Assembly (NCBI RefSeq): GCF_003334335.1
Contig: NZ_QOWQ01000091.1
DNA from: Escherichia coli
Lineage (GTDB): Bacteria; Pseudomonadota; Gammaproteobacteria; Enterobacterales; Enterobacteriaceae
DNA length: 2,257 bases
Strand: one strand, 5' to 3'
Of the stretch, positions 1-2,257 are shown piece after piece. The position numbers were made by a program, and so were the translations under genes. Within the stretch, counting starts at the first letter, position 1, and each line of letters starts with the position of its first letter. The notes below the pieces were generated by a model that saw only the letters and a list, made by a program, of their open reading frames with translations, did not search any database and was not told the DNA's origin.

Positions 1-468
1 CGTACCATTCAGAACTGGCAGGAACAGGGAATGCCCGTTCTGCGAGGCGGTGGCAAGGGTAATGAGGTGCTTTATGACTCTGCCGCCGTCATAAAATGGT
101 ATGCCGAAAGGGATGCTGAAATTGAGAACGAAAAGCTGCGCCGGGAGGTTGAAGAACTGCGGCAGGCCAGCGAGGCAGATCTCCAGCCAGGGACTATTGA
201 GTACGAACGCCATCGACTTACGCGTGCGCAGGCCGACGCACAGGAACTGAAGAATGCCAGAGACTCCGCTGAAGTGGTGGAAACCGCATTCTGTACTTTC
301 GTGTTGTCGCGGATCGCAGGTGAAATTGCCAGTATTCTCGACGGGATCCCCCTGTCGGTGCAGCGGCGTTTTCCGGAACTGGAAAACCGACATGTTGATT
401 TCCTGAAACGGGATATCATCAAAGCCATGAACAAAGCAGCCGCGCTGGATGAACTGATACCGTTATGA
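1..468 (+). CDS. nu1: Terminase small subunit Nu1 (lambda-like), 5' end outside window, 3' end truncated at a deletion junction
   Basis: Frame 1 is open from position 1 (cgt acc att cag aac tgg = RTIQNW), which precedes the ORF-track start at 31 and shows the gene enters from upstream. The translation ...IRTIQNWQEQGMPVLRGGGKGNEVLYDSAAVIKWYAERDAEIENEKLRREVEELRQASEADLQPGTIEYERHRLTRAQADAQELKNARDSAEVVETAFCTFVLSRIAGEIASILDGIPLSVQRRFPELENRHVDFLKRDIIKAMNKAAALDELIP matches lambda gpNu1 as I recall it, from about residue 17 to about residue 150. The last codons are ccg tta tga (P L stop, 460-468), whereas lambda Nu1 continues ...PGLLSEYIEQSG, so roughly 30 C-terminal residues are missing. Identity is from memory, not a search. 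Confidence 0.85.
   Translation, partial: RTIQNWQEQGMPVLRGGGKGNEVLYDSAAVIKWYAERDAEIENEKLRREVEELRQASEADLQPGTIEYERHRLTRAQADAQELKNARDSAEVVETAFCTFVLSRIAGEIASILDGIPLSVQRRFPELENRHVDFLKRDIIKAMNKAAALDELIPL
461..464. other. Deletion/recombination junction fusing nu1 (upstream) to an internal site of lom (downstream)
   Basis: Nu1-homologous sequence ends at ...gaactgatacc(g) at about 462. From about 463 the sequence ttatgagtttacggatacgctggggctggtgacg reads in a different frame (458 onward) as YRYEFTDTLGLVTSF, which is internal Lom sequence. The exact breakpoint is ambiguous by 1-2 nt (the cg at 461-462 could belong to either parent). Confidence 0.7.
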
Positions 469-895
469 GTTTACGGATACGCTGGGGCTGGTGACGTCAT
501 TCAGCTATGCAGGAGACAAGAATCGCCAGCTGACCCATTACAGCGATACCCGCTGGCATGAAGATTCCGTTCGTAACCGCTGGTTCAGCGTAATGGCGGG
601 GCCGTCTGTGCGCGTGAATGAATGGTTCAGCGCGTATGCGATGGCGGGTGTGGCTTACAGCCGTGTGTCGACTTTCTCCGGGGATTATCTCCGCGTAACT
701 GACAACAAGGGGAAAACGCACGACGTGCTGACCGGAAGTGATGACGGTCGCCACAGCAACACGTCTCTGGCGTGGGGAGCTGGCGTGCAGTTTAACCCGA
801 CCGAATCCGTGGCCATTGATATTGCTTATGAAGGCTCCGGCAGTGGCGACTGGCGCACTGACGGTTTCATCGTGGGTGTCGGTTATAAGTTCTGA
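463..895 (+). pseudogene. lom: 5'-truncated lom fragment (Ail/Lom-family outer-membrane beta-barrel protein) lacking signal peptide and native start; the ORF track reports it as 491..895 with a GTG start
   Basis: The frame opens after a TGA at 455-457 and reads YRYEFTDTLGLVTSFSYAGDKNRQLTHYSDTRWHEDSVRNRWFSVMAGPSVRVNEWFSAYAMAGVAYSRVSTFSGDYLRVTDNKGKTHDVLTGSDDGRHSNTSLAWGAGVQFNPTESVAIDIAYEGSGSGDWRTDGFIVGVGYKF, then stop TGA at 893-895. This matches the C-terminal ~150 residues of lambda Lom (about 206 aa in my recollection) with a single apparent difference (H where I recall R in QLT[R/H]YSDT). The N-terminal ~55 residues, including the signal peptide, are absent. The C-terminal aromatic residue (..GYKF) is typical of outer-membrane beta-barrels. 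The only in-frame start candidate is GTG at 491, with a weak GGGG 3 nt upstream. Confidence 0.85.
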
Positions 896-921: not shown

Positions 922-948
922 AGCCCGCCGGTTCAGGCGGGCTTTTTT
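922..948 (+). terminator. Rho-independent (intrinsic) terminator downstream of lom
   Basis: Perfect 8-bp GC-rich inverted repeat, agcccgcc (922-929) and ggcgggct (936-943), with a 6-nt loop ggttca (930-935), followed immediately by a T-run (943-948, tttttt). It lies 27 nt after the lom stop codon. The opposite strand has no U-tract after the stem, so it is unidirectional for + strand transcripts. Confidence 0.75.
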
Positions 949-950
949 GT

Positions 951-955
951 GGGGT
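951..955 (+). promoter_or_regulatory. Putative Shine-Dalgarno sequence for stf
   Basis: ggggt located 4 nt upstream of the ATG at 960; a partial match to the GGAGGT consensus. Confidence 0.4.
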
Positions 956-959
956 GAAT

Positions 960-2257
960 ATGGCAGTAAAGATTTCAGGTGTACTGAAAGACGGCACAGG
1001 AAAACCGGTACAGAACTGCACAATCCAGCTGAAAGCAAAACGTAACAGCACCGCGGTGGTGGTGAACACGCTGGCCTCAGAAAATCCGGATGAAGCCGGG
1101 CGTTACAGCATGGACGTTGAGTACGGTCAGTACAGCGTTATTCTGTTGGTGGAAGGATTCCCGCCGTCACATGCCGGGACCATCACCGTGTATGAAGATT
1201 CCCGACCCGGTACGCTGAATGATTTTCTCGGTGCCATGACGGAGGATGATGCCCGTCCGGAGGCTCTGCGCCGTTTTGAACTGATGGTGGAAGAGGTGGC
1301 GCGTAACGCGTCCGCAGTGGCACAGAACACGGCAGCCGCGAAGAAGTCAGCCAGCGATGCCCGCACATCAGCCCGTGAGGCGGCAACCCATGCGACTGAT
1401 GCTGCAGGCTCAGCACGCGCAGCCAGCACGTCAGCCGGACAGGCCGCGTCGTCGGCTCAGTCAGCGTCTTCCAGCGCAGGAGCGGCATCAACAAAGGCCA
1501 GTGAAGCATCGAAAAGTGCTGCTGCTGCAGAGTCCTCAAAAAGCGCGGCAGCTACCAGTGCCGCTGCGGCGAAAACGTCAGAAACGAATGCGGCAGCGTC
1601 ACAACAATCAGCAGCCACTTCTGCATCCGCCGCGACCACGAAGGCGTCAGAAGCTGCCACCTCAGCCCGGGATGCGGCGGCCTCAAAAGAGGCGGCAAAA
1701 TCATCAGAAACGAGCGCAGCCTCGAGCGCCAGTAGTGCAGCCTCCTCGGCAACAGCGGCAGGAAATTCCGCGAAGGCGGCAAAAACGTCCGAGACGAACG
1801 CTAAGTCTTCTGAGACGGCAGCAGCACAGAGTGCCTCCGCAGCAGCAGACTCAAAAACAGCGGCTGCCTCATCTGCCAGCGCCGCGTCAACAAATGCCGG
1901 GCAGGCCTCAGCCAGTGCCACCGCTGCCGGAAAGTCGGCAGAAAGCGCCGCATCATCCGCTTCAACAGCCACAACGAAGGCTGGCGAAGCCACTGAACAG
2001 GCCACGGCAGCAGCGAGGTCAGCTTCCGCAGCGAAGACATCCGAAACGAACGCGAAAGCGTCGGAAACCAGCGCAGAATCCTCAAAAACGGCTGCCGCAT
2101 CGTCAGCCAGTTCGGCGGCGTCATCGGCATCATCGGCGTCTGCTTCAAAAGATGAGGCGACCAGACAGGCGTCAGCAGCGAAGGGCAGCGCCACGACGGC
2201 ATCCACGAAGGCGACAGAGGCAGCTGGCAGTGCGACGGCGGCAGCTCAGAGCAAAAG
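960..2257 (+). CDS. stf: Side tail fiber protein Stf (lambda-like), N-terminal conserved domain plus Ala/Ser/Thr-rich repeat region; 3' end beyond the window
   Basis: ATG at 960-962 opens a frame with no stop through the window end (432 complete codons), which is why the ORF track omits it. Translation begins MAVKISGVLKDGTGKPVQNCTIQLKAKRNSTAVVVNTLASENPDEAGRYSMDVEYGQYSVILLVEGFPPSHAGTITVYEDSRPGTLNDFLGAMTEDDARPEALRRFELMVEEVARNASAVAQNTAAAKKSA..., which closely matches the N-terminus of lambda Stf and related prophage side tail fibers as I recall them (the prophage tail fibre N-terminal domain). It is followed by a long low-complexity A/S/T/K/E tract with recurring K(T/S)SET(N/S)A motifs. Gene order lom then stf matches lambda. 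Confidence 0.9.
   Translation, partial: MAVKISGVLKDGTGKPVQNCTIQLKAKRNSTAVVVNTLASENPDEAGRYSMDVEYGQYSVILLVEGFPPSHAGTITVYEDSRPGTLNDFLGAMTEDDARPEALRRFELMVEEVARNASAVAQNTAAAKKSASDARTSAREAATHATDAAGSARAASTSAGQAASSAQSASSSAGAASTKASEASKSAAAAESSKSAAATSAAAAKTSETNAAASQQSAATSASAATTKASEAATSARDAAASKEAAKSSETSAASSASSAASSATAAGNSAKAAKTSETNAKSSETAAAQSASAAADSKTAAASSASAASTNAGQASASATAAGKSAESAASSASTATTKAGEATEQATAAARSASAAKTSETNAKASETSAESSKTAAASSASSAASSASSASASKDEATRQASAAKGSATTASTKATEAAGSATAAAQSK
1320..2257 (+). repeat. Degenerate in-frame coding repeats (Ala/Ser/Thr-rich tail-fiber repeat region) within stf
   Basis: The motif AAK-TSETN-A recurs at nt 1572-1589 (aaa acg tca gaa acg aat), 1782-1799 (aaa acg tcc gag acg aac) and 2034-2051 (aag aca tcc gaa acg aac), with KSSET variants at 1698-1712 and 1803-1817. 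Protein composition over this span is dominated by A, S, T, K, E. The repeats are imperfect and irregularly spaced (210 and 252 nt between the three KTSETN copies), not exact tandem copies. Confidence 0.6.

What the first reader, a model, noticed from the sequence alone, without database searches (positions are those of the whole stretch)
1320..2257. Expanded Ala/Ser/Thr-rich repeat tract in the Stf N-terminal shaft region
After the conserved ~120-aa N-terminal domain, the protein enters a low-complexity repeat tract that already spans more than 300 residues by the window end. Lambda Stf, as I recall it, reaches ...STKATEAAGSAVSASQSK with a shorter tract; here the equivalent STKATEAAGSATAAAQSK lies at the very end of the window, preceded by roughly 90 extra residues of repeat. 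This suggests a longer fibre shaft, as in some E. coli cryptic-prophage Stf proteins. Repeat-number variation in this tract is a plausible route to altering fibre length.
Basis: partly seen in the sequence, partly recalled or inferred. Interest (0 to 1): 0.4.

Follow-up and report, generated by a model that had tools for sequence, protein, structure and literature searches.

The report
Long coiled-coil rod of Stf fibre
The Ala/Ser/Thr-rich tract is the alpha-helical coiled-coil rod of a lambda-type side tail fibre, in the common long (Rac StfR-type) form that is exactly 15 heptads longer than phage lambda's; it is real but ordinary and already known.

Summary
The ORF starting at 960 encodes a lambda-type side tail fibre (Stf). 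From about residue 102 to the window end it is 76% Ala, Ser or Thr.

The tract is not a loose low-complexity repeat. It is one unbroken heptad pattern, A-x-x-S-A-x-x, with Ala in one register in 44 of 44 heptads (best of 2000 shuffles: 30). It matches the proximal trimeric coiled coil described for Ur-lambda Stf.

Compared with lambda, the window has 105 extra residues, not about 90. They are codons 304-408 (nt 1869-2183), exactly 15 heptads, or roughly 15.5 nm of extra rod.

The long form is not unusual:
- E. coli K-12 Rac StfR has the same tract length and is 95% identical over the 432 residues.
- The segment is contiguous in 3650 of 5426 complete E. coli genomes and in 21 phage records.

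Other length classes exist, 7 and 16 heptads shorter than the long form. All differ by whole heptads and look like in-register internal deletions of the long form. Lambda is therefore probably the contracted variant.

No tandem DNA repeats or recent duplication are present.

Verdict: correct reading, known biology, low interest.

The parts
951..962 (+). Shine-Dalgarno-like GGGGTG (951-956) and the ATG start (960-962) of stf
   Evidence: Read directly from the sequence. The same start is used by lambda orf-401.
960..1232 (+). Stf N-terminal collar domain (aa 1-91), the beta-sheet domain that docks on the tail tube/tip junction
   Evidence: PDB 9e7m/9mgh, lambda Stf 1-94, matches at E = 6.9e-51. 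Pfam PF08400 phage_tail_N covers aa 1-134 at E = 4.5e-71. The AF2 model has beta strands at aa 3-77. Domain limits are taken from Yu et al. 2025, PMC12617516.
1233..1262 (+). [quoted passage not shown]
   Evidence: AF2 pLDDT is below 50 at aa 86-99 and the helix starts at aa 101. Ur-lambda has its linker at residues 92-101.
1263..2257 (+). Proximal alpha-helical coiled-coil rod (aa 102-432, running off the window end). The heptad is A-x-x-S-A-x-x, in phase from F106 (nt 1275) with no stutter.
   Evidence: Heptad table: position a is Ala in 47/51 heptads, d is Ser in 36/51, e is Ala in 35/51. Shuffle test. DNA repeat spacings are mostly multiples of 21 nt. AF2 predicts helix at aa 101-306 and 325-431. 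Ur-lambda has a proximal trimeric coiled coil.
1869..2183 (+). The 105-aa (15-heptad) segment, codons 304-408, that lambda Stf lacks and StfR has
   Evidence: Local protein alignment. Codon register switch at 303/304. StfR has the same length. The segment is contiguous in 3650 of 5426 E. coli genomes and in 21 phage records.
2184..2257 (+). Coil heptads collinear again with lambda aa 304-327 (GSATTASTKATEAAGSATAAAQSK)

Best explanation
Nucleotides 1263-2257 encode most of the proximal rod of a lambda-type side tail fibre (Stf).

How the fibre is built: three Stf chains dock on the tail through their N-terminal collar domains (aa 1-91). They pass through a short linker and then wind into one long parallel alpha-helical coiled coil. 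The core of that coil is made of small residues: Ala at heptad position a, Ser at d, Ala at e. The rod acts as a spacer arm that holds the hinge, the distal shaft and the receptor-binding tip away from the tail. Those parts lie beyond the window. In the closest full-length homologue they comprise three Phage_fiber_2 repeats, a collar domain and a T4 gp37-like tip, followed by a tfa chaperone gene.

Length: this allele has about 50 heptads in the full-length homologues (aa 106-455, about 52 nm at 0.148 nm per residue). Lambda has about 35 (about 36 nm). The difference is a block of exactly 15 heptads, about 15.5 nm.

Status of the allele: it is the standard StfR-type form. Lambda and the other shorter classes are most simply explained as in-register deletions between similar heptads. 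Such deletions keep the coiled-coil phase intact.

Shown here: identity as Stf, the heptad pattern, the 105-aa difference, identity of length with StfR, prevalence, and heptad-quantised length classes.

Inferred: trimeric state and rod geometry (by homology to Ur-lambda cryo-EM/ET), the nm values, the deletion direction, and any effect of length on adsorption.
For: - Stf identity: Pfam phage_tail_N, three Phage_fiber_2 repeats and a Collar domain; PDB lambda Stf 1-94 and T4 gp37 tip; lom-stf-tfa gene order.
- Heptad structure: the heptad table; Ala in 44 of 44 heptads in one register against a shuffle maximum of 30; only offsets that are multiples of 7 give raised self-identity; DNA repeat spacings of 21, 42, 63, 84, 105, 126... 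nt.
- Helix: the AF2 monomer model has helices at aa 101-306 and 325-431.
- Published architecture of Ur-lambda Stf: collar 1-91, linker 92-101, proximal trimeric coiled coil from 102 (PMC12617516).
- The 105-aa difference from lambda.
- StfR has the same length and is 95.4% identical.
- The long form is in 3650 of 5426 genomes and 21 phage records.
- Anchor-distance classes of 246, 253, 309 and 358 aa all differ by multiples of 7.
- The 246 and 309 classes are internal deletions of the long form between AK[ST]SETN and AASSAS heptads respectively.
Against: - No trimer model or structure of this allele was made. The AF2 monomer has a low-confidence break at aa 307-324, which coincides with the start of the extra segment. 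It is probably a fold-back artefact like the one reported for AlphaFold3 on Ur-lambda Stf, but a real kink there is not excluded.
- The window and lambda are only about 86% identical in DNA across the shared part. The indel cannot be polarised rigorously, and the lambda-type alleles also carry a distinct sequence block downstream of about aa 288. Mosaic replacement rather than a simple deletion is therefore possible.
- The gene sits in a prophage remnant that lacks head and tail genes, so this particular copy may never be assembled into a virion.
Confidence: 0.9

Rival explanations
1. The long form arose by gain, not loss. The 15-heptad block was inserted into a lambda-length ancestor by unequal crossing-over or by mosaic recombination with another fibre gene, so 'expanded' is the right word.
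For: The same coil, including the block, is found fused to a different N-terminal domain in the 108-kb phage Cyrano and in P0159, so the module does move between genes. Lambda-type alleles differ by a whole sequence block, not only by the gap. The direction cannot be read from the diverged junction.
Against: The block is not a near-copy of any neighbouring part: the best DNA self-matches are 73-86% over 45 nt or less, and no higher-order period exists. The long form is the majority form. Two other short classes are demonstrably internal deletions of the long form.
Confidence: 0.2
2. The tract is a hypermutable tandem-repeat (VNTR or contingency-type) locus in which replication slippage frequently changes the copy number.
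For: Several length classes exist among close homologues. The region fragments many draft assemblies, as shown by the many 'partial' proteins.
Against: Tandem Repeats Finder finds no array apart from a 22-nt trivial one. The heptads are degenerate at the DNA level, 60-86% identical. Only four or five discrete classes are seen across 70 clusters, and the long class is conserved in length from K-12 Rac to free phages.
Confidence: 0.04
3. The tract is an intrinsically disordered low-complexity linker with no defined structure.
For: Composition is 76% Ala/Ser/Thr. StfR has been flagged as an outlier for low-complexity regions (PMC12695832).
Against: The heptad phase is perfect over about 50 heptads. 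AF2 predicts helix, with pLDDT of 80-93 over aa 110-290. A rod-like proximal coiled coil is seen in Ur-lambda by cryo-EM/ET.
Confidence: 0.03

Closest known systems
E. coli K-12 Rac prophage StfR (1120 aa)
   Same: Same N-terminal domain and the same coil length (358 aa between the anchors MVEEVARNA and GIVQLS). It is 95.4% identical without gaps over all 432 residues in the window, and it has the same lom-stf-tfa order.
   Different: The closest full-length relative of the window (EC416, 987 aa) has a different distal part from StfR. The prophage context also differs: here nohD is fused to a truncated lom, whereas in Rac lom is interrupted by IS5.
Phage lambda Stf (Ur-lambda gpStf; orf-401/orf-314 in lambda PaPa)
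   Same: Collar domain, linker, heptad coil with the same A-x-x-S-A-x-x pattern, and the same motifs on both sides of the gap. The two are collinear over aa 1-303 and from aa 409 onward.
   Different: Lambda lacks the 15 heptads of codons 304-408. DNA identity is about 86% in the shared part.
Alanine-zipper trimeric coiled coils such as E. coli Lpp-56 (from my own knowledge, not tested here)
   Same: Small residues (Ala) at core heptad positions of a parallel trimer.
   Different: Here Ser occupies position d and Ala also occupies e, over about 50 consecutive heptads. No sequence or structure comparison was made.

Membership tests
Lambda-type side tail fibre (Stf; Pfam PF08400 phage_tail_N family) | N-terminal collar domain homologous to lambda Stf residues 1-94 | tested here: met
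   PF08400 matches aa 1-134 at E = 4.5e-71. PDB 9e7m matches at E = 6.9e-51. Both tests were run on the 99%-identical full-length homologue L002. The window protein is collinear with lambda over aa 1-303.
Lambda-type side tail fibre (Stf; Pfam PF08400 phage_tail_N family) | Gene lies downstream of lom and upstream of a tail-fibre assembly gene (tfa) | tested here: met
   A truncated lom at 491-895 precedes stf in the window. tfa follows stf in EC416, phage Turner and Rac.
Lambda-type side tail fibre (Stf; Pfam PF08400 phage_tail_N family) | Long alpha-helical coiled-coil proximal rod after the collar domain | tested here: met
   Unbroken heptad pattern and AF2-predicted helix. The architecture is described for Ur-lambda.
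Lambda-type side tail fibre (Stf; Pfam PF08400 phage_tail_N family) | Homotrimer, four fibres per virion | not testable with these tools
   Only monomer prediction is available. This is inferred from Ur-lambda cryo-EM.
Lambda-type side tail fibre (Stf; Pfam PF08400 phage_tail_N family) | Distal fibre repeats and a C-terminal receptor-binding tip | tested here: met
   These lie outside the window. In L002: three Phage_fiber_2 repeats, a Collar domain, and a T4 gp37 tip (PDB 2xgf, E = 5.3e-82).
StfR-type long-rod allele | 358 aa between MVEEVARNA and the first GIVQLS motif (lambda has 253) | tested here: met
   StfR measures 358. Eighteen homologue clusters that share the window's sequence measure 358. 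The window itself ends 34 aa before the C-terminal anchor but is gap-free against StfR up to its end.
Tandem-repeat (VNTR-type) variable locus | Head-to-tail near-identical DNA units | tested here: not met
   Tandem Repeats Finder finds only a 22-nt array. Direct repeats are 60-86% identical.

The most novel reading that the evidence does not exclude
The rod length of Stf-type fibres may be a selected, heptad-quantised 'reach' parameter. Discrete alleles of about 34, 35, 43 and 50 heptads in E. coli, and from a handful to more than 50 heptads across the wider family, would be produced by in-register recombination between degenerate heptads. They would be kept because fibre reach must match the depth of the host surface layer (O-antigen or capsule) or the length of the central fibre J. 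In addition, the Ala(a)/Ser(d)/Ala(e) core, with not one stutter in about 50 heptads, may be a distinct mechanical class of trimeric coiled coil. The papers I searched do not describe the heptad rule.
Probability: 0.25. Interest if true: 0.35.

Novelty: already known. Interest (0 to 1): 0.15.

Why it matters
It matters little in itself. This is the standard StfR-type side tail fibre rod, carried by two-thirds of complete E. coli genomes.

Two points are of modest practical use:
- Length variants of the rod differ by whole heptads. That gives safe rules for engineering chimeric lambda Stf fibres for phage-derived delivery particles: cut and paste in heptad phase.
- Intact stf-tfa cassettes in decayed prophages are known donors for recombination with incoming lambdoid phages (PMC3945230). 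Such remnants therefore act as reservoirs of fibre length and specificity alleles.

Tried and rejected
- A global alignment with free end gaps against lambda orf-401 misplaced the gap, because the window is truncated. I replaced it with a local alignment of the full-length homologue and a codon register test.
- Tandem Repeats Finder found nothing useful.
- A search for a higher-order repeat of 10-12 heptads found only weak peaks at 49 and 77 aa and no real super-repeat.
- DNA alignment could not resolve the indel junction to the nucleotide, because the alleles are about 14% diverged.
- An automatic register-segmentation of 203 homologues confused heptad positions a and e, since both are Ala. 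Its 'multi-register' calls mostly differ by +4 and are not true stutters. I use it only to show that coil length varies widely.
- Literature searches for a prior description of the Ala/Ser heptad rule in Stf/StfR found none. The Ur-lambda structure paper does not use the word 'heptad'.
- I rejected an assembly artefact as an explanation, because the same arrangement occurs in thousands of complete genomes.

Full report
WHAT IS IN THE WINDOW

The window holds three elements:
- the 3' part of a Nu1-type small terminase gene (nohD-like, 31-468);
- a 5'-truncated lom gene (491-895), followed by a hairpin and T-run (922-949);
- from 960, an ORF that stays open to the window end (432 codons).

The ORF is a lambda-type side tail fibre, Stf.
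- The closest complete genome match is E. coli EC416, 99.2% identical over the whole window. There the ORF continues to 987 aa and is followed by a tail fibre assembly gene.
- On that homologue, Pfam finds phage_tail_N at aa 1-134 (E = 4.5e-71), three Phage_fiber_2 repeats at aa 462-590 and a Collar domain.
- A PDB sequence search finds lambda Stf residues 1-94 (9e7m/9mgh, E = 6.9e-51) at the N-terminus and the T4 gp37 tip (2xgf, E = 5.3e-82) at the C-terminus.

CHECK OF THE OBSERVATION

- Both quoted peptides are exact. Lambda orf-401 has STKATEAAGSAVSASQSK from aa 310. The window has STKATEAAGSATAAAQSK at aa 415-432.
- A local alignment of the full-length homologue with lambda orf-401 is collinear over aa 1-303 and again from aa 409. 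A single 105-aa gap lies in lambda.
- A codon-by-codon comparison of lambda against the two possible registers of the window shows the switch between codons 303 and 304. The extra block is therefore codons 304-408, nt 1869-2183.

WHAT THE TRACT REALLY IS

Written in rows of seven from F106, the sequence shows one uninterrupted heptad, A-x-x-S-A-x-x, down to about aa 455 in the full-length homologues.
- Position a is Ala in 47 of 51 rows. The remaining four rows, Val in two and Arg and Phe in one each, are the first four of the table, at or just before the start of the coil.
- Position d is Ser in 36 of 51 rows.
- Position e is Ala in 35 of 51 rows.

Several tests support this.
The best of 2000 shuffles reached 30.
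- Fourier power of Ala at periods 7 and 3.5 is 5.5 and 8.9, against shuffle maxima of about 2.
- Self-identity of the tract is raised only at offsets that are multiples of 7.
- The degenerate DNA repeats are spaced mostly by multiples of 21 nt.
- There are no tandem DNA repeats and no higher-order repeat.
- An AF2 monomer model gives beta strands for aa 3-77, a low-confidence linker at aa 86-99, and helices at aa 101-306 and 325-431.

This matches the published architecture of Ur-lambda Stf (Yu et al. 2025, PMC12617516):
- collar domain at residues 1-91, twelve copies around the gpV/gpM junction, giving four trimeric fibres;
- flexible linker at residues 92-101;
- proximal trimeric coiled coil from residue 102;
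- then a hinge and the distal part.

The tract is therefore the proximal coiled-coil rod of the fibre.

IS THE LENGTH UNUSUAL?

No.
- K-12 Rac StfR (1120 aa) has exactly the same distance between the anchor motifs MVEEVARNA and GIVQLS: 358 aa, against 253 in lambda. It is 95.4% identical to the window protein without any gap.
- A 558-nt query that spans the whole extra block (window 1700-2257) is contiguous in 3650 of 5426 complete E. coli genomes and in 21 phage records. These include Turner (100% identical), 2H10, mEp460, mEp332 and ev099.
- The long form is the common one, and lambda is the short variant.

LENGTH VARIATION

Among the 120 closest protein clusters, 70 carry both anchors. Their anchor distances are:
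- 246 aa in 19 clusters;
- 253 aa in 31 clusters (the lambda type);
- 309 aa in 1 cluster;
- 358 aa in 18 clusters (the window type);
- 353 aa in 1 cluster, an aberrant case whose deletion runs into the fibre repeat.

The four regular classes differ by 7, 56, 105 and 112 aa, all whole numbers of heptads.

Laid out in heptads, the shorter classes are internal deletions of the long form.
- The 246 class removes 16 heptads between two AK[ST]SETN heptads.
- The 309 class removes 7 heptads between two AASSAS heptads.
- Lambda's gap likewise lies between two similar stretches, AASSASA-AST and AKGSATT-AST.

The 105-aa block is not a near-copy of any other part of the tract. The most economical reading is therefore that the long form is the parent and the short forms arose by in-register recombination or deletion. 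I cannot prove the direction. The window and lambda alleles are about 14% diverged in DNA, and lambda-type alleles carry a distinct sequence block around the junction.

Across 50%-identity representatives of the wider family, the heptad run ranges from a few heptads to 56 (P0233) by a strict pattern count. A rougher window-based count gives larger totals.

MECHANISM

Shown and inferred steps are kept apart here.

- the protein is an Stf;
- the tract is a phase-perfect heptad helix;
- it is 15 heptads longer than lambda's and equal in length to StfR's.

The remaining steps are inferred.
- Three chains form a parallel coiled coil with a small-residue core.
- At about 0.148 nm per residue, the rod of about 350 aa is about 52 nm, against about 36 nm for lambda's 245 aa, so this allele is about 15.5 nm longer.
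- The rod is a spacer that sets how far the receptor-binding tip reaches from the tail.
- In Ur-lambda the side fibres bind OmpC and speed adsorption 10-30 fold. They are longer than the central fibre, so they probably touch the cell first.
- Whether the extra 15 nm changes adsorption is untested.

CONTEXT

- Window nt 1-462 aligns without gaps, and almost without mismatches, to lambda nu1 nt 239-700 (local alignment score 909 of a possible 924). It is joined at about 462/463 to the distal two-thirds of lom.
- This copy therefore sits in a remnant that has lost every head and tail gene between nu1 and lom. Only 35 complete genomes share that junction.
- In EC416 the remnant follows DLP12-type genes and abuts ybhB/bioA.
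- Such orphan stf-tfa cassettes are known recombination partners of incoming lambda (De Paepe et al. 2014, PMC3945230).

COMPARISON AND NOVELTY

- The closest known protein is Rac StfR, which has the same length and 95% identity.
- Lambda Stf has the same architecture and is 15 heptads shorter.
- The coil has been described structurally for Ur-lambda.
- StfR has been noted as a low-complexity outlier in K-12 (PMC12695832).
- I found no paper stating the Ala/Ser heptad rule or the heptad-quantised length classes. That is a small descriptive addition, not a new kind of thing.

VERDICT

The feature is an ordinary, already known one. Interest is low.

Noticed in passing
window 1-495: Window nt 1-462 aligns to lambda nu1 nt 239-700 without gaps and almost without mismatches. 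It is fused at about 462/463 to a 5'-truncated lom (491-895). This single deletion removes all head and tail genes (A to J) and leaves an orphan lom'-stf-tfa cassette. Only 35 of 5426 complete E. coli genomes share the junction. In EC416 it follows DLP12-type genes and lies next to ybhB/bioA.
   Followed up: partly
window 1457-2206, minus strand: There is a 249-aa antisense ORF across the coil-coding region. It is a shadow of the GCN/TCN-rich sense codons. Lambda's annotated hypothetical gene 'orf206b' occupies the same antisense position and is shorter because lambda's coil is shorter, so that annotation is probably spurious.
   Followed up: partly
window 922-949: A GC-rich hairpin followed by a T-run (terminator-like) lies between lom and stf. 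It is identical in EC416, phage Turner and K-12 Rac. Lambda has it with a changed loop and a G-T pair. Presumably Q-modified late transcription reads through it.
   Followed up: partly
L006:3270-7295 (phage Cyrano, 108 kb) and protein P0159: The same coil, including the 105-aa block, sits behind an unrelated N-terminal domain of about 150 aa (MWYREGTITF...). This occurs in a 1341-aa fibre annotated as a P1 S homologue. The rod therefore moves as a module between phages with different tail attachment domains.
   Followed up: partly
proteins P0192, P0197, P0205, P0217, P0229, P0238, P0254: Seven proteins of 2500-4400 aa from the representative library contain several long Ala/Ser/Thr heptad stretches that are 44-50% identical to this tract. 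Their origin and function were not examined.
   Followed up: no
proteins P0057 and P0077: In some alleles the coil keeps the same first 280 aa or so, then continues with different SETNAK-type heptads into an unrelated distal domain (…ALNYRNQAQ…). This is an example of mosaic exchange inside the coil while staying in heptad phase.
   Followed up: no
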